Virus record (IMG/VR): IMGVR_UViG_2541047168_000023
Location: 1-11,416 of that record
DNA: 11,416 nt
From: a virus
Lineage: Duplodnaviria; Heunggongvirae; Uroviricota; Caudoviricetes
Reading direction: 5' to 3' (one strand)
The translations under genes were made by a program, and so were the position numbers. Every line of letters begins with the position of its first letter. Positions within the stretch are counted from its first letter, which is position 1. Positions 1 to 7,062 of the stretch are shown here, piece by piece. The notes under the pieces were generated by a model that searched no databases, was not told where the DNA came from, and saw only the letters and a program-made list of their open reading frames with translations.

Positions 1-174
1 CAACTCCGGGAGCCGTGATTATGGCATTCAGGCTCTGCTAAAAATGCCAGATAACATTCCGGCCTCCCCTGATTCAGGTTATAAATGACACAATATCTTG
101 ACAACACCCGTCACTGTCTGTCAGAAAATATACCGCCAGGCATAAGTATCATGTGAAATCCAACTATCCTTCTG

Positions 175-217: not shown

Positions 218-423
218 CCTTAATAAAGCATCTGTAACTGGTTGTTGTTCTGCGGGTTCTGTTCTTCGTTGACATGAGGTTGCCCCGTATTCAGTGTCGC
301 TGATTTGTATTGTCTGAAGTTGTTTTTACGTTAAGTTGATGCAGATCAATTAATACGATACCTGCGTCATAATTAATTATTTGACGTGGTTTGATGGCGT
401 AGATGCACGTTGTGACATGTAGA

Positions 424-438
424 TGATAATTATTATCA
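424..438. promoter_or_regulatory. Perfect 7-1-7 inverted repeat TGATAAT-T-ATTATCA (Fur-box-like)
   Basis: Read directly: TGATAAT (424-430), T (431), ATTATCA (432-438), inside an AT-rich stretch about 40 bp upstream of cosN. It matches the 7-1-7 description of Fur boxes (TGATAATnATTATCA); function is unknown. Confidence 0.3.
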
Positions 439-474
439 TTTTGCGGGTCCTTTCCGGCGATCCGACAGGTTACG

Positions 475-486
475 GGGCGGCGACCT
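475..486. other. cosN: cosN 12-nt cohesive-end sequence (lambda-type cos site)
   Basis: GGGCGGCGACCT at 475-486, preceded by CGACAGGTTACG and followed by CGCGGGTTTTCGCTATTTATGAAAATTTTCCGG. From recollection this matches the phage lambda cos junction (right end ...CAGGTTACG, left end GGGCGGCGACCTCGCGGG...). The small terminase gene starts about 185 bp downstream, as in lambda. Confidence 0.85.
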
Positions 487-520
487 CGCGGGTTTTCGCT
501 ATTTATGAAAATTTTCCGGG

Positions 521-632
521 ATCCATGTCCGGTTTCTCTTCAAGTTAACTATATGAAAAATATAAAAACAGGTCTTCTGTGAACCGGACATGAACAAAAA
601 ACAGACATGTAAACCGGACATGACCGGTTTTG
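521..632 (+). promoter_or_regulatory. cosB: Putative cosB: three copies of ATGTCCGGTT flanking an AT-rich IHF-like segment
   Basis: ATGTCCGGTT at 525-534 (+ orientation) and its reverse complement AACCGGACAT at 582-591 and 612-621. An AT-rich stretch (about 545-570, TATATGAAAAATATAAAAACAGG) lies between the first and second copies. This mirrors lambda cosB (R3, I1, R2, R1, with R3 inverted), but the repeat sequence differs from what I recall of the lambda R sites. Confidence 0.5.
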
Positions 633-669
633 TTGTGATTGTGAGGTGAGAGTTTTTGCGAGGTGAGGA

Positions 670-1179
670 GTGGCTACGCAGACTGAAGTTGCCAGGCATT
701 TAAGTCTGACCGATCGCCAGCTTCGCAGATTGCAGAAATTGCCGGGTGCCCCGATATCGAATAAGCGAGGGCAACTGGATCTGGATGCCTGGCGCGATTT
801 TTACATATCGTATCTGAGGAGAAGTAAAAACGATGTGCCTGATGGCGATAGCGAAGACGACTATGAGGAGAAATTGCTTATTGCCAGATGGGAACTGACA
901 GCAGAACAGGCTGTTACACAGCAGTTAAAAAATGAGGTGTCAAAAGGAAAACTGATTGACACCGGGTTCTGTATTTTTGCCCTCAGTAAGCTGGCAATGG
1001 CGTTATCCAGTACGCTTGATTCCATCCCTTTATCCATGCAGCGACAGTTTCCTGATTTAACACCGCGCCATCTTGACCATCTGAAAACCCTTATTGCTAA
1101 GGGGGCAAATCAGTGTGCGCGGGCAGGGGATAAATTACCGGATTTACTTGATGAATATATCAGAGCAACAACTGAATAA
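670..1179 (+). CDS. Nu1: Terminase small subunit (Nu1 family)
   Basis: 169-aa ORF from GTG 670, immediately after cos and overlapping the start of A. The C-terminal half resembles lambda Nu1 as I recall it (FCxFxLS..., PLSxQRxFP, LxEYI). The N-terminal region (TQTEVARHLSLTDRQLRRLQ) is HTH-like but unlike lambda Nu1. Confidence 0.85.
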   Translation: MATQTEVARHLSLTDRQLRRLQKLPGAPISNKRGQLDLDAWRDFYISYLRRSKNDVPDGDSEDDYEEKLLIARWELTAEQAVTQQLKNEVSKGKLIDTGFCIFALSKLAMALSSTLDSIPLSMQRQFPDLTPRHLDHLKTLIAKGANQCARAGDKLPDLLDEYIRATTE

Positions 1180-3080
1180 TATGATGAGCGCTGTCACAAC
1201 TGCATTACAGCCCCTGATAAGGGCATTGCCGGTGACGCCAGTTGAATGGGCTGATCAAAATTATTATCTGCCTAAAGAATCTTCATATGGTGAGGGCGAA
1301 TGGAAAACGCTGCCATTCCAGATCGCCATCATGAACAGTATGGGGAATGATCAGATCCGCACTGTTAATCTGATTAAATCTGCCCGTGTTGGCTATACAA
1401 AGATGTTGCTGGGGGGGGGGCGGGTATTTTATTGAGCATAAATCCCGAAACAGTCTGCTTTTTCAGCCCACGGATTCTGCCGCTGAAGATTTTATGAAGT
1501 CTCACGTGGAGGCGACGATTCGGAACGTGCCATGCCTGAAAGACCTTTCCCCATGGCTGGGTCGTAAACATCGTGACAATACTCTCACGCTGAAACGCTT
1601 TTCATCGGGCGTCGGTTTCTGGTGCCTGGGCGGCGCTGCCGCCAAAAACTACCGTGAAAAATCCGTTGACGTGGTCTGCTATGACGAACTTTCCTCGTTC
1701 GAGCCGGATGTCGAAAAAGAGGGCTCGCCAACCCTGCTGGGGGATAAGCGTATTGAGGGGTCGGTGTGGCCAAAATCCATTCGCGGCTCGACGCCTAAAA
1801 TCAAAGGCACCTGCCAGATCGAAAAAGCCGCTAACGAGTCGGCGCATTTTATGCGTTTTTATGTGCCCTGCCCGCACTGTGGGGAGGCGCAGTATCTGAA
1901 ATTTGGCGATGAGTCCACGCCTTTTGGGCTTAAATGGGAGAAGGACAGCCCTGAAAGTGTTTTCTACCTCTGTGAACATCATGGCTGCGTGATCCATCAG
2001 TCTGAACTGGACCAGAGCAACGGGCGGTGGATCTGTGAAAACACGGGCATGTGGACCCGTGACGGTCTGACGTTTTTCAGCGCCCGGGGTGATGAAATTC
2101 CGCCGCCGCGCTCCATCATGTTCCATATCTGGACGGCGTACAGTCCGTTCACCACCTGGGTACAGATTGTCTATGACTGGCTGGATGCACTGAAAGATCC
2201 CAACGGCCTGAAAACCTTTGTGAACACCACGCTGGGCGAGACCTGGGAAGAGGCCGTGGGCGAAAAACTCGATCACCAGGTACTGATGGATAAGGTGGTG
2301 CGTTACACGGCGGCGGTGCCTGCCCGGGTGGTTTATCTGACGGCGGGCATTGACTCGCAGCGAAACCGTTTTGAGATGTATGTCTGGGGATGGGCTCCGG
2401 GAGAGGAAGCCTTTCTGGTGGATAAAATCATCATTATGGGGCGTCCTGATGAGGAAGAGACGCTGTTACGTGTGGATGCGGCGATCAACAAAAAATACCG
2501 CCATGCGGATGGCACCGAAATGACTATTTCCCGTGTCTGCTGGGACACCGGGGGGATCGATGGTGAAATTGTTTATCAGAGATCAAAAAAACACGGTGTT
2601 TTCCGGGTGCTGCCGGTAAAAGGCGCATCTGTCTATGGCAAGCCGGTGATCACCATGCCAAAAACCCGCAATCAGCGGGGCGTGTATCTGTGTGAAGTGG
2701 GAACGGACACCGCAAAAGAAATTCTCTATGCCCGTATGAAAGCCGATCCCTCGCCTGCGGATGAAGCCACGTCGTATGCCATCCGTTTTCCTGATGATCC
2801 GGAGATTTTTTCGCAGACAGAGGCGCAGCAACTGGTGGCGGAAGAGCTGGTGGAGAAGTGGGAAAAAGGAAAGATGCGTCTGCTGTGGGATAACAAAAAG
2901 CGGCGTAACGAAGCGCTGGACTGCCTGGTGTATGCCTACGCGGCATTACGTGTGTCCGTGCAACGCTGGCAGCTTGATCTGGCTGTACTGGCAAAATCCC
3001 GGGAAGAAGAGACGACCCGGCCAACCCTGAAAGAACTGGCAGCGAAGCTGTCCGGAGGAGTGAATGGTTACAGTCGCTGA
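1151..3080 (+). pseudogene. A: Terminase large subunit (gpA homolog), frame interrupted at a G10 tract (real frameshift or homopolymer error)
   Basis: Two ORFs in different frames (1094-1435 and 1386-3080) together give a full-length gpA homolog. The likely start is ATG 1151 (MNISEQQL..., compare lambda MNISNSQV...). The frames switch at GGGGGGGGGG (1411-1420); removing one G gives ...GYTKMLLGGGGYFIEHK..., collinear with lambda ...GYSKMLLGVYAYFIEHK... Downstream motifs are conserved (KNYREKSVDV, FVNTTLGETWE, KRRNEALDC). Confidence 0.8.
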
Positions 3081-4859: not shown

Positions 4860-6354
4860 TCTTTCACACATTATTGCCGCAGCATTCAATGAACCGCTGC
4901 TTCTGGAGCCCGCCTATGCGCGGGTTTTCTTTTGCGCGCTCGGGCGCGAGATGGGGGCAGCAAGTCTTTCGGTACCACAGCAGCAGGTACAGCTTGATGC
5001 TCCCGGAATGCTGGCTGAAACGGACGAGTACATGGCCGGAGGTAAACGACCGGCCCGTGTTTACCGGGTGGTGAACGGTATTGCTGTACTGCCGGTGACC
5101 GGCACGCTGGTGCACCGGCTGGGGGGTATGCGGCCATTTTCCGGAATGACAGGCTATGACGGCATTGTCGCCTGTCTTCAGCAGGCAATGGCGGATAGCC
5201 AGGTGCGGGGCGTACTGCTGGACATTGACAGTCCGGGCGGGCAGGCCGCCGGCGCGTTTGACTGCGCTGACATGATTTACCGCCTCCGTCAGCAGAAGCC
5301 GGTCTGGGCACTGTGCAATGACACGGCCTGTTCTGCAGCCATGCTGCTGGCGTCGGCCTGCTCCCGACGGCTGGTTACCCAGACATCCCGTATCGGCTCC
5401 ATTGGCGTGATGATGAGCCATGTCAGCTATGCCGGTCATCTGGCGCAGGCCGGTGTGGATATCACGCTGATTTACTCAGGGGCGCACAAGGTGGATGGCA
5501 ATCAGTTTGAAGCCTTACCGGCAGAGGTTCGCCAGAACATGCAGCAGCGCATTGATGCGGCGCGCCGGATGTTTGCCGAAAAAGTGGCCATGTTTACCGG
5601 TCTGTCTGTTGATGCCGTCACGGGAACAGAGGCCGCCGTTTTTGAAGGTCAGTCCGGCATTGATGCCGGGCTGGCGGATGAATTAGTCAATGCGTCGGAT
5701 GCCATCAGTGTGATGGCCACGGCGCTGAACAGTAATGTCAGAGGAGGCACTATGCCGCAATTAACTGCAACGGAAGCCGCCGCGCAGGAGAACCAGCGAG
5801 TGATGGGGATCCTGACATGCCAGGAAGCGAAAGGACGTGAACAGCTTGCCACGATGCTGGCAGGACAACAGGGCATGAGCGTTGAACAGGCCCGGGCGAT
5901 TCTGGCCGCGGCGGCACCGCAGCAGCCGGTGGCATCCACGCAGAGTGAAGCCGATCGCATTATGGCGTGTGAAGAAGCGAACGGTCGTGAACAACTGGCG
6001 GCAACGCTGGCGGCGATGCCGGAGATGACGGTGGAAAAAGCCCGCCCGATCCTGGCTGCTTCACCGCAGGCGGATGCCGGACCCTCACTCCGTGATCAGA
6101 TCATGGCACTGGATGAGGCAAAAGGGGCTGAGGCGCAGGCTGAACAGCTGGCTGCCTGCCCGGGAATGACTGTGGAGAGCGCCCGGGCTGTGCTGGCTGC
6201 GGGATCAGGTAAGGCAGAACCGGTCTCTGCATCCACAACCGCCCTGTTTGAACGCATCATGGCGAACCATTCACCGGCTGCGGTACAGGGTGGCGTGCCA
6301 CAGACGTCAGCAGACGGTGATGCGGACGTGAAAATGCTCATGGCCATGCCATGA
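4849..6354 (+). CDS. C: Prohead protease/scaffold gpC (S49/SppA-like peptidase domain), with an expanded repeat at the C terminus; a nested Nu3-like scaffold product is possible
   Basis: 501 aa, GTG start overlapping the end of B. The N-terminal two-thirds match lambda gpC as recalled (AFNEPLLLEPAYARVFFCAL, MTGY, GAFDCAD, KPVWAL, RRLVTQT, GSIGVMM, ITLIYSG.HKVDGN, IDAGLADELVN). The C-terminal third carries tandem repeats (separate repeat feature). Confidence 0.9.
   Translation: MRRNLSHIIAAAFNEPLLLEPAYARVFFCALGREMGAASLSVPQQQVQLDAPGMLAETDEYMAGGKRPARVYRVVNGIAVLPVTGTLVHRLGGMRPFSGMTGYDGIVACLQQAMADSQVRGVLLDIDSPGGQAAGAFDCADMIYRLRQQKPVWALCNDTACSAAMLLASACSRRLVTQTSRIGSIGVMMSHVSYAGHLAQAGVDITLIYSGAHKVDGNQFEALPAEVRQNMQQRIDAARRMFAEKVAMFTGLSVDAVTGTEAAVFEGQSGIDAGLADELVNASDAISVMATALNSNVRGGTMPQLTATEAAAQENQRVMGILTCQEAKGREQLATMLAGQQGMSVEQARAILAAAAPQQPVASTQSEADRIMACEEANGREQLAATLAAMPEMTVEKARPILAASPQADAGPSLRDQIMALDEAKGAEAQAEQLAACPGMTVESARAVLAAGSGKAEPVSASTTALFERIMANHSPAAVQGGVPQTSADGDADVKMLMAMP
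5797..6300 (+). repeat. In-frame tandem repeats (about 141-159 bp, 3 full copies plus 1 partial) in the C-terminal region of C
   Basis: Units begin at 5797 (RVMGILTCQEAKGREQLATMLAGQQGMSVEQARAILAAAAPQ), 5956 (RIMACEEANGREQLAATLAAMPEMTVEKARPILAASPQ) and 6097 (QIMALDEAKGAEAQAEQLAACPGMTVESARAVLAAGSG), with a partial copy at 6253 (RIMANH...). As I recall, lambda gpC has a single such unit (RIMGILNCEEAHGREEQARVLAETPGMTVKTARRILAAAPQ). Confidence 0.65.
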
Positions 6355-6795: not shown

Positions 6796-7062
6796 ATGGG
6801 ATTGTTTACGACCCGCCAGTTACTCGGTTATACCGAACAAAAAGTGAAATTTCGTGCGCTGTTTCTGGAGCTGTTTTTCCGCCGTACGGTGAATTTCCAT
6901 ACCGAAGAGGTGATGCTGGACAAAATTACCGGAAAAACGCCGGTGGCGGCCTATGTCTCCCCGGTTGTTGAAGGAAAAGTGCTGCGTCATCGCGGTGGTG
7001 AAACCCGCGTGTTACGTCCGGGCTACGTCAAGCCGAAACACGAATTCCCCTGGAGCCGGTAA
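6796..7062 (+). pseudogene. E: Truncated major capsid protein gene (E'), N-terminal ~84 codons only
   Basis: MGLFTTRQLLGYTEQKVKFRALFLELFF...PGYVKPKHE tracks lambda gpE (MSMYTTAQLL...KFKFDPLFLRLFF...PGYVKPKHE) up to 7044. It then reads FPWSR and stops at 7060-7062. Lambda gpE is about 341 aa. Confidence 0.8.

What the first reader, a model, noticed from the sequence alone, without database searches (positions are those of the whole stretch)
521..632. cosB-like array of three ATGTCCGGTT repeats paired with a divergent small-terminase N-terminus
Three copies of a 10-12 bp element (525-534 forward; 582-591 and 612-621 inverted) flank an AT-rich, IHF-like segment, the same layout as lambda R3-I1-R2-R1. 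The third copy sits inside a near-palindrome, AAACCGGACATGACCGGTTT. The small terminase keeps a Nu1-like C-terminal half but has a different N-terminal HTH region, consistent with a distinct packaging specificity.
Basis: partly seen in the sequence, partly recalled or inferred. Interest (0 to 1): 0.5.

Follow-up and report, generated by a model that had tools for sequence, protein, structure and literature searches.

The report
Lambda-type cosB with new repeat sequence
This is the DNA-packaging recognition site (cosB) of a lambda-like E. coli O157:H7 prophage: three conserved repeats and a bending site, paired with a small terminase whose DNA-binding domain differs from phages lambda, 21 and N15, so it is most likely a widespread but so far undocumented packaging specificity of a well-known kind.

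Summary
ATGTCCGGTT occurs exactly at 525-534 (+), 582-591 (-) and 612-621 (-), with a one-mismatch forward copy at 620-629. No shuffle reached four matches.

The repeats lie 51-147 bp after a lambda-identical cohesive end (GGGCGGCGACCT, 475-486). R3, an IHF-like site (546-558) and inverted R2 have the same centre-to-centre geometry as annotated phage 21 cosB.

- The repeats are invariant across E. coli variants while the spacers drift.
- The core TCCGGT starts 82-86 bp after cosQ in 19 of 20 tabulated loci with a cosQ upstream of the gene (76 and 92 in two), from Escherichia to Azospirillum, wherever TerS has this N-terminal domain.
- The repeat subtype tracks TerS residue 20. Arg goes with TGTCCGG (106/106 viral contigs). 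Asp/Asn/Glu/Thr goes with TTCCGG.
- A satellite family without TerS carries the same cosB.

- The third repeat is inverted, unlike lambda or 21 R1.
- The palindrome's forward half is not conserved.
- The R core only partly resembles phage 21 (CATGTCGG).

No binding has been tested. I found no prior description in the papers searched. Verdict: a new variant of a known kind, of moderate interest.

The parts
445..451 (+). cosQ (GGGTCCT), the packaging-termination subsite
   Evidence: It lies 30 bp before cohesive-end base 1. GGGTCC sits 82-86 bp upstream of the R3 core in 19 of the 20 tabulated loci that have one upstream of the gene (76 in one Azospirillum MAG, 92 in Microbulbifer). It lies 78-81 bp before R3 in 119 of 119 IMG/VR matches. 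That cosQ is conserved in lambda-like phages is stated in PMC4669245.
475..486 (+). cosN cohesive-end sequence GGGCGGCGACCT, identical to lambda and phage 21
   Evidence: Direct comparison with J02459 and OL657228 bp 1-12. Window 380-519 is 100% identical to the cosQ-cosN region of several lambda-like phages, and similarity stops at 519/520.
524..535 (+). R3: CATGTCCGGTTT (core 525-534), bp 50-61 from the cohesive end. Inferred primary TerS binding site.
   Evidence: Exact repeat. Invariant in 7 of 7 E. coli variants including a satellite. Same position as lambda and 21 R3 (bp 50-65, PMC9026076). The core position is conserved in distant relatives.
546..558 (-). I1-like IHF site (TTTCATATAGTTA on the minus strand), followed by an A-rich tract to about 575
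   Evidence: 7 of 9 matches to WATCAANNNNTTR, equal to lambda I1. A minus-strand match at cosQ+100..102 is present in 10 of 11 complex cosB loci, with a perfect 9 of 9 in three of them. Phage 21 I1 is annotated at bp 74-86; here it is bp 72-84.
581..592 (-). R2: CATGTCCGGTTC read on the minus strand (core 582-591), inverted relative to R3
   Evidence: Conserved in 6 of 7 E. coli variants, with one A>G change in CFT073. It sits at cosQ+137..139 in all 11 complex loci. The R3-R2 gap is exactly 47 bp in all 119 IMG/VR matches, although the pattern allowed 40-55 bp.
611..622 (-). Third R element (R1 equivalent): CATGTCCGGTTT on the minus strand (core 612-621). It is inverted relative to R3, unlike lambda and 21 R1.
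   Evidence: Conserved in 7 of 7 variants. It lies +30 bp (rarely +29) from R2 in 111 of 119 IMG/VR loci, and at +30 in Enterobacter kobei despite an unrelated spacer.
620..629 (+). Degenerate forward copy ATGACCGGTT, the right half of the near-palindrome 611-630. Probably not a required element.
   Evidence: Absent from RM8082, from the satellite L006 and from all 12 satellite-like IMG/VR loci.
670..834 (+). TerS N-terminal winged helix-turn-helix domain (aa 1-55). Predicted recognition helix aa 15-22 (712-735). Residue Arg20 = 727-729.
670..1179 (+). Small terminase subunit gene (169 aa, GTG start), identical to WP_000235436.1
   Evidence: Annotation of identical loci. Pfam Phage_Nu1 scores 67.9 bits over aa 49-150. 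PHROG 57/1790 terminase small subunit.
1151..3080 (+). Large terminase subunit gene, frameshifted at a 10-G run (1411-1420) in this copy
   Evidence: One extra base relative to the intact CFT073 gene. Annotated as frameshifted in NZ_AP018488.

Best explanation
Window 445-632 is a complete lambda-type cos site: cosQ, cosN and cosB.

The three ATGTCCGGTT elements are the R sites of cosB, the sequences bound by the winged helix-turn-helix domain of the small terminase encoded immediately downstream.

By analogy with lambda and phage 21, IHF bends the AT-rich I1 segment so that R3 and the inverted R2 face each other. A TerS dimer docks on them, which positions the large subunit to nick cosN about 50 bp upstream and start packaging rightward. 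The third, inverted R, 30 bp (about three helical turns) beyond R2, is probably an accessory site, as lambda R1 is.

The R sequence and the TerS recognition helix both differ from those of lambda, 21 and N15. This should therefore be a separate packaging specificity. It has two subtypes, distinguished by one base (TGTCCGG against TTTCCGG) and one helix residue (Arg20 against Asp/Asn/Glu/Thr).

What is shown: the sequences, their positions, their conservation, the co-variation and the predicted fold. What is inferred: binding, bending and specificity.
For: Position
- R3 lies at bp 51-60 from a lambda-identical cohesive end. The R3-I1-R2 centre spacings (22.5 and 34.5 bp) equal those annotated in phage 21.

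Footprinting
- R3, R2 and R1 are conserved across seven E. coli variants with drifting spacers and a 28-bp indel.
- They are also kept in Enterobacter, Citrobacter and Salmonella loci whose spacers are unrelated.

Deep linkage
- Of the tabulated phages and genome loci whose TerS has this N-terminal domain (40-65% identity; Escherichia, Enterobacter, Aeromonas, Pseudomonas, Microbulbifer, Azospirillum, Roseomonas), the TCCGGT core starts 82-86 bp after cosQ in 19 of the 20 with a cosQ upstream of the gene; the outliers are an Azospirillum MAG (76) and Microbulbifer (92).
- A locus with an altered helix (L030) instead has three GGGTTGCGGGTTGCG repeats. L031 and L034, with similarly altered helices, have no TCCGGT.

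Co-variation
- The R3-N47-R2 pattern with TGTCCGG hit 119 IMG/VR stretches, all in a cos context. 106 were followed by a TerS, and 106 of 106 had the ...RRLQK helix.
- TTCCGG loci have D/N/E/T at residue 20.
- The repeat type follows the N-terminal domain, not the C-terminal domain.

Independent use
- A satellite family (capsid and decoration genes, no TerS) carries cosQ-cosN-R3-I1-R2-R1 of this type.

Fold

Viability
- PhiR12 phages, whose records name K-12 or E. coli C as host, have this cosB and TerS at 96-99% identity.
Against: - There is no binding, footprint or packaging experiment for this cosB or TerS.
- The third repeat's orientation differs from lambda and 21, so the higher-order complex cannot simply be copied from lambda.
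- The window's IHF match is only 7 of 9, and short AT-rich consensus matches are common.
- The Arg20 group forms one cluster in the N-terminal-domain tree. The residue-base co-variation may therefore be a single evolutionary event.
- Similarity of the N-terminal domain to gpNu1 is not detectable by phmmer or tblastn. It is weak by hhalign (17% probability), and Foldseek E-values were not significant.
- This particular prophage is defective (TerL frameshift, truncated capsid gene). Its cos may work only in trans, or not at all.
Confidence: 0.85

Rival explanations
1. The repeats are TerS binding sites, but they do not define a new specificity. The element is functionally a phage 21-type (or cross-recognised) cosB, because the R core shares CATGTC-GG with phage 21.
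For: The phage 21 R elements are TTTCATGTCGGGCC, TTTCATGTCGGACC and AATCGTGTCGGTAC. The window has CATGTCCGGTT. The R3-I1-R2 geometry is identical. N15 terminase is known to package lambda DNA despite divergent elements (PMC4669245).
Against: The TerS N-terminal domain has no detectable sequence similarity to phage 21 gp1; tblastn aligns only aa 64-166. The recognition helices differ (TDRQLRRLQK against DPRTIERWQSQ). The invariant part of the family-wide core is TCCGGTT, which phage 21 lacks. The core sits about 3 bp closer to cosN than in phage 21.
Confidence: 0.08
2. The repeats and hairpins are transcriptional signals for the late operon, either terminator/attenuator stem-loops or operator sites for a regulator, rather than packaging signals.
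For: Two terminator-like stem-loops were flagged at 516-532 and 611-630, and a promoter-like site at 410-439.
Against: The counts are not above the shuffled expectation (2 found against 0.8 +/- 0.8). The 611-630 hairpin is destroyed in RM8082 and in the satellites while the inverted R is kept. The elements keep a fixed distance to cosQ and cosN, not to the TerS start, which varies from 128 to 175 bp. The satellites keep them with no terminase gene downstream.
Confidence: 0.03
3. The repeats are bound by some other protein, either a hijacker of the Rpp type or a host factor, and TerS recognises a different feature.
Against: The repeat subtype co-varies with a residue of the TerS helix encoded in cis, and it follows the TerS N-terminal domain through recombination. 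No Rpp-like gene is evident next to the prophage cos.
Confidence: 0.04

Closest known systems
Phage 21 cos (cosB-21: R3, I1, R2, R1; gp1 TerS)
   Same: Identical cohesive end. R3 at bp 50-65. The same R3-I1-R2 centre spacings (22.5 and 34.5 bp). R2 is inverted. The R core shares CATGTC..GG. The TerS gene follows directly. The TerS C-terminal half is about 40% identical.
   Different: The R core has an extra C and a TT tail (CATGTCCGGTT against CATGTCGG) and lies about 3 bp closer to cosN. R1 is inverted and 30 bp from R2, instead of direct and about 43 bp away. The TerS N-terminal domain is not recognisably similar in sequence.
Phage lambda cos (cosB-lambda, gpNu1)
   Same: The same cosQ-cosN-R3-I1-R2-third R architecture, an I1 of equal consensus quality at the same position, and the same gene order Nu1-A-W-B. 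The TTTCCGG subtype of the family resembles the lambda R sequence TTTCCG.
   Different: Different R sequence, different recognition helix, and a different orientation of the third R. Lambda-type similarity stops abruptly at window 519/520.
N15 / Monarch pair (simple versus complex cosB sharing one specificity; PMC4669245)
   Same: This family also has both forms. The simple form is a tandem TTCCG(G/C)TTCCGGTT at the R3 position just before terS, seen in Aeromonas phiARM81ld, Pseudomonas LPPA33 and E. coli 705R4. The complex form is R3-I1-R2(-R1), seen in the window and in Klebsiella and Salmonella prophages.
   Different: N15 R3 is GAGGTTGTTGTT, and its TerS N-terminal domain is different.
PICI cos sites read by Rpp-TerS (EcCICFT073; PMC6739421, PMC9026076)
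   Same: A satellite carries phage-like cosQ and cosN plus a cosB. The Rpp DNA-binding domain has the same predicted fold as this TerS N-terminal domain.
   Different: The satellites seen here copy the helper-type cosB (R3-I1-R2-R1), and no Rpp-type gene was recognised among the genes scanned next to their cos. EcCI cosB is reported to differ from the helper's and to lack I1, R2 and R1.

Membership tests
Lambda-type cos site (cosQ-cosN-cosB) | 12-nt 5' cohesive-end sequence related to lambda's, with a conserved cosQ about 30 bp upstream | tested here: met
   GGGCGGCGACCT at 475-486 is identical to lambda and phage 21. GGGTCCT is at 445-451. Actual nicking was not tested.
Lambda-type cos site (cosQ-cosN-cosB) | R3 TerS site about 50-65 bp from the cohesive-end start | tested here: met
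   The R3 core is at bp 51-60. This position is conserved in nearly all relatives.
Lambda-type cos site (cosQ-cosN-cosB) | IHF site I1 between R3 and R2 | tested here: inconclusive
   A 7 of 9 consensus match at 546-558 (-), equal to lambda I1. A match at the same position occurs in 10 of 11 related loci, perfect in three. IHF binding itself is not testable here.
Lambda-type cos site (cosQ-cosN-cosB) | R2 inverted relative to R3, about 55-57 bp centre to centre | tested here: met
   57 bp centre to centre. The gap is exactly 47 bp in all 119 IMG/VR matches.
Lambda-type cos site (cosQ-cosN-cosB) | R1 in the same orientation as R3 | tested here: not met
   The conserved third copy (612-621) is inverted. 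The forward copy at 620-629 is not conserved.
Lambda-type cos site (cosQ-cosN-cosB) | TerS binds the R elements and directs cosN nicking | not testable with these tools
   Only indirect support is available: co-variation and conservation.
gpNu1-type small terminase | Nu1-like oligomerisation and TerL-binding region | tested here: met
   Pfam PF07471 scores 67.9 bits (cut-off 30) over aa 49-150. The region is 40-47% identical to lambda, 21, N15 and phi80.
gpNu1-type small terminase | N-terminal MerR-like winged HTH DNA-binding domain | tested here: met
Phage 21 packaging specificity | R consensus (C/T)(A/G)TGTCGG with the gp1 recognition helix DPRTIERWQSQ | tested here: not met
   R = CATGTCCGGTT and helix = TDRQLRRLQK.
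Lambda packaging specificity | R consensus CGTTTCC(G/T)TTCT with the gpNu1 helix SIRTIQNWQEQ | tested here: not met
N15/Monarch packaging specificity | R3 GAGGTTGTTGTT with the N15 gp1 helix | tested here: not met
   and PMC4669245.

The most novel reading that the evidence does not exclude
This is a fourth family of packaging specificity among lambda-like cos phages that has not been documented experimentally. Its R core is TCCGGTT, and it pairs with a TerS N-terminal domain that lambda-family sequence searches cannot recognise. It occurs in about a fifth of complete E. coli genomes and extends to Alphaproteobacteria.

Within the family, a single helix residue (Arg20 against Asp/Asn) and a single base (G against T before TCCGG) appear to switch sub-specificity. 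The aligned position in lambda and phage 21 shows the same pairing: Asn21 with TTTCC and Arg21 with TGTCG.

A dedicated capsid-encoding satellite family copies the whole cosB, apparently to be packaged by these phages without an Rpp-type adaptor.
Probability: 0.55. Interest if true: 0.55.

Novelty: new variant of a known kind. Interest (0 to 1): 0.45.

Why it matters
Packaging specificity decides which DNA in a polylysogenic cell ends up in virions. E. coli O157:H7 carries several lambda-like prophages, some defective, and these are known to be packaged in trans when their cos sites match (PMC2669165).

As of 2015 only three specificities (lambda, 21, N15) had been documented. The authors remarked that more diversity would be expected (PMC4669245).

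This class is common. 1302 of 5426 complete E. coli genomes match it (1141 over at least 80% of its length), including O157:H7 and CFT073. It comes with natural variants that form a ready-made genetic series:
- simple and complex cosB forms;
- subtypes with Arg20/G or Asn-Asp20/T;
- the same cosB joined to different cohesive ends.

That series could be used to study how a small winged-HTH protein reads its site and how specificity changes. It also predicts which prophages and satellites can mobilise each other.

Tried and rejected
- **Terminator or attenuator reading of the hairpins 516-532 and 611-630.** The counts are not above shuffles, and the 611-630 hairpin is not conserved.
- **Minus-strand ORF 499-699 (66 aa).** A short ORF is annotated here in PhiR12. 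I rejected it as a gene because variation is concentrated in the spacers and includes a 28-bp indel.
- **phmmer of TerS against PDB sequences.** There were no meaningful hits; the best E-value was 0.7.
- **hhalign of the N-terminal-domain profile against lambda, 21 and N15.** The register is right, but probability is only 17%.
- **Reverse pattern TTTCCGGTT-N40-58-AACCGGAAA in IMG/VR.** It gave 23 hits. Most were chance matches outside any cos. Two were genuine, both with an Asn20 helix. L171 and L185 were inspected and rejected.
- **Literature searches for a prior description of this cosB.** They found only the lambda, 21, N15 and PICI papers. Many subscription-journal papers are not in the library, including the 2015 Virology papers on N15 and on lambda/21 contacts. 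Absence of a prior description is therefore not proven.
- **Source paper for the PhiR12 phages.** A search did not find it.

Full report
**Where the window comes from**

The window is 100% identical over 500-1200 to a lambdoid prophage of several E. coli O157:H7 genomes. 1302 of 5426 complete E. coli genomes have a match to this segment, 1141 of them over at least 80% of its length. The annotated neighbourhood is lysis genes, a gap with no annotation, then terminase small subunit, large subunit, head-tail joining protein, portal, protease, decoration protein and a truncated capsid gene.

Window 380-519 is 100% identical to the cosQ-cosN region of many lambda-like phages and 93.6% identical to lambda. 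That similarity ends at 519/520. From 424 onward the window matches only the PhiR12 phages, at 96%.

The lambda cohesive end GGGCGGCGACCT is at 475-486 and cosQ GGGTCCT at 445-451.

**The observation**

ATGTCCGGTT occurs exactly at 525-534 (+), 582-591 (-) and 612-621 (-). ATGACCGGTT occurs at 620-629 (+). There are no other matches in the window. Chance expectation is 0.65, and 0 of 200 shuffles reached four matches. The palindrome 611-630 and the extended repeats CATGTCCGGTTT / AAACCGGACATG are confirmed.

Counted from cohesive-end base 1, the copies lie at bp 51-60, 108-117 and 138-147.

In the annotated phage 21 genome, cosB is R3 50-65, I1 74-86, R2 107-122 (inverted) and R1 150-166. The window's IHF-consensus match is at 546-558 on the minus strand (bp 72-84), scoring 7 of 9, the same as lambda I1. 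The centre-to-centre distances R3-I1 and I1-R2 are therefore 22.5 and 34.5 bp, exactly as in phage 21.

The third copy differs. It is inverted and lies 30 bp from R2. In lambda and phage 21, R1 is direct.

**The terminase**

ORF 670-1179 (GTG start, 169 aa) is identical to WP_000235436.1, 'terminase small subunit'.
- Pfam Phage_Nu1 covers only aa 49-150.
- tblastn to lambda, 434, phi80, 21, N15 and Gifsy-1 aligns only from about aa 59-73 onward, at 34-47% identity.
- Full-length matches are limited to PhiR12 (99%), Pseudomonas LPPA33 (43%), Aeromonas phiARM81ld and PhAER-1 (32-35%), E. coli 705R4 (33%) and Vibrio HY01 (24%).

Foldseek E-values were not significant, although the top hits were all MerR-type winged-HTH proteins. 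Profile comparison with the lambda, 21 and N15 N-termini is weak (17% probability), but it is in the expected HTH register: window Arg16 aligns with lambda Arg17, and window residue 20 with lambda Asn21 / phage 21 Arg21.

**Conservation within E. coli**

I aligned cos regions from O157, PhiR12_1, CFT073, B1172, RM8082, DA33135 and a satellite.
- R3 (CATGTCCGGTTTCT) is invariant.
- R2 is invariant apart from one A>G change in CFT073.
- The inverted third R is conserved in all seven.
- The spacers vary, and RM8082 has a 28-bp insertion after the third R.
- The forward copy 620-629 is lost in RM8082 and in the satellite.

RM8082 also has a different cohesive-end sequence joined to the same cosB.

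**Deeper comparison**

Using the N-terminal 56 aa of four family members, a scan of one genome per species returned 26 loci. In the tabulated phage and genome loci with the MATQxEVAxHLxL(S/T)(D/E)R... domain, a tandem TTCCG(G/C)TTCCGGTT lies just upstream of terS. The TCCGGT core starts 82-86 bp after cosQ GGGTCC in 19 of the 20 tabulated loci that have a cosQ upstream of the gene, in Escherichia, Enterobacter, Aeromonas, Pseudomonas, Azospirillum and Roseomonas. The exceptions are an Azospirillum MAG at 76 and Microbulbifer at 92. These are 'simple' cosBs, like that of N15.

A locus with a different helix (L030, LTQQAVSALIQ) instead has three GGGTTGCGGGTTGCG repeats. L031 and L034, with similarly altered helices, have no TCCGGT.

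Intermediate homologues at 60-80% identity come from Klebsiella, Salmonella, Citrobacter and Enterobacter. They have 'complex' cosBs with R3 at cosQ+82..84, an IHF-consensus match at +100..102 (perfect in three), an inverted R2 at +137..139 and sometimes an inverted third R at +167 or +181. Their spacers are unrelated to the window's.

**Co-variation**

Loci whose helix reads ...RQLRRLQK (residue 20 = Arg) have (C/G)ATGTCCGGTT in every R element. These are the window, PhiR12, CFT073, RM8082, Enterobacter kobei, Citrobacter and Salmonella P0021.

Loci with Asp, Asn, Glu or Thr at residue 20 have (T/C/G)TTCCGGTT.

As a reverse test, I scanned IMG/VR for ATGTCCGGTT-N40-55-AACCGGACAT.
- Every one lay 78-81 bp after a cosQ.
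- 106 were followed by a TerS, and all 106 had the RRLQK helix.
- 12 had no TerS, and 1 was at a contig edge.

The TTTCCGGTT version of the pattern is far less specific. Only 2 of its 23 hits lay in a cos context, and both had an Asn20 helix.

The repeat type follows the N-terminal domain rather than the C-terminal domain. P0010 has a C-terminal part 90% identical to the window's but an N-terminal domain only 62% identical, and it has TTTCCGG sites. P0036 has a C-terminal part 56% identical, and it has TGTCCGG sites.

One caveat applies. The Arg20 sequences form one cluster in the N-terminal-domain tree, so the switch may be a single event.

By direct reading, lambda R is TTTCCG with Asn21, and phage 21 R is TGTCGG with Arg21. 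That is the same T/G with Asn/Arg pairing at the aligned helix position. This is a parallel, not a demonstrated contact. The published genetics assign bp 56 to residue 24 (PMC4669245).

**Satellites**

A chromosomal element in E. coli strain 135 encodes a RepA-family helicase, SSB, PerC, ProQ/FinO, a gpE-type major capsid protein and a decoration protein. It carries cosQ, cosN (one base changed), R3, I1, R2 and the inverted third R of this type. It has no terminase gene.

All 12 TerS-less IMG/VR hits belong to the same family, at 90-96% identity over the capsid-to-cos region. That an unrelated mobile element keeps the three R elements and I1, but not the forward copy, argues that these are the functional packaging signals.

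**Rivals**

The terminator or operator reading is not supported. Cross-specificity with phage 21 cannot be excluded without experiments, but it is unlikely given the unrelated helix. Binding by another protein is unlikely given the cis co-variation.

**Comparison with what is known**

The element works like lambda and phage 21 cosB, and it passes most membership features of a lambda-type cos. It fails the R1-orientation feature and the sequence definitions of the lambda, 21 and N15 specificities.

A 2015 paper from the Feiss laboratory states that only the lambda, 21 and N15 specificities had been documented (PMC4669245). The 2022 review adds only PICI cos sites (PMC9026076). For O157, the cos and Nu1 of Sp4 and Sp14 were aligned with lambda, and trans-packaging of a terminase-defective prophage by a sibling with an identical cos was inferred (PMC2669165). 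As far as the text shows, no R elements were analysed there.

I found no description of this R sequence. The library does not hold many subscription-journal papers.

**Verdict**

This is a new variant of a known kind. It is common, well defined by comparative evidence and ready for experiment, but not surprising in principle.

Noticed in passing
window 1411-1420 (within TerL, 1151-3080): A run of 10 G replaces GGGGGTGGT of the intact CFT073 gene. This adds one base and frameshifts the large terminase subunit. The identical locus in NZ_AP018488 is annotated as frameshifted.
   Followed up: yes
window 6796-7062: The major capsid (gpE-type) gene is cut to 88 codons and is followed directly by tail genes. 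The prophage therefore lacks a functional head gene and could be packaged only in trans. The identical locus is annotated 'major capsid protein, incomplete'.
   Followed up: partly
L006 (NZ_CP080260.1 3779029-3791150), cos at about 5945-6125; also L051, L052, L059, L060, L067, L078, L092, L095, L100, L111, L131, L141: A family of small elements encodes a RepA-family helicase, SSB, PerC, ProQ/FinO, a gpE-like capsid protein and a decoration protein. They carry this cosB type (R3, I1, R2, inverted R1) but no terminase gene. They are apparently phage satellites that copy the helper's packaging site. Some appear to have a duplicated cos region.
   Followed up: partly
window 519/520: There is a sharp mosaic junction. 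Window 380-519 (cosQ, cosN and 45 bp beyond) is 100% identical to phages that have lambda-type cosB. Everything from 520 onward belongs to a different lineage. The recombination point sits exactly between cosN and R3.
   Followed up: partly
L039 (RM8082) and IMG/VR loci: The same cosB and TerS helix is combined with different cohesive-end sequences. RM8082 has GGGCGGCAGCGG. Among the IMG/VR loci, 8 have GGGCGGGAGCGG, 3 have the N15-like GGGCGGCGTCCG, and a few have others. cosN and cosB therefore assort independently.
   Followed up: no
L030 (Pararoseomonas baculiformis, NZ_JAGIZB010000007.1), about 60-150 bp upstream of terS: A relative whose recognition helix is changed (LTQQAVSALIQ) has three copies of GGGTTGCGGGTTGCG instead of TCCGGT. 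This may be another specificity within the same protein family.
   Followed up: no
window 639-650 and 656-667: Direct repeat TTGTGAGGTGAG / TTGCGAGGTGAG just upstream of the TerS GTG start. It amounts to two Shine-Dalgarno-like GAGGTGAG motifs 17 bp apart, and it is conserved in the E. coli variants.
   Followed up: no
L011-L029, upstream of terS: cosQ-like GGGTCC lies at a nearly constant distance from the TerS site (82-86 bp in 19 of 20 tabulated loci) in prophages of Gamma- and Alphaproteobacteria. The lambda-type cos architecture is much older and more widespread than the enteric lambdoid phages.
   Followed up: partly
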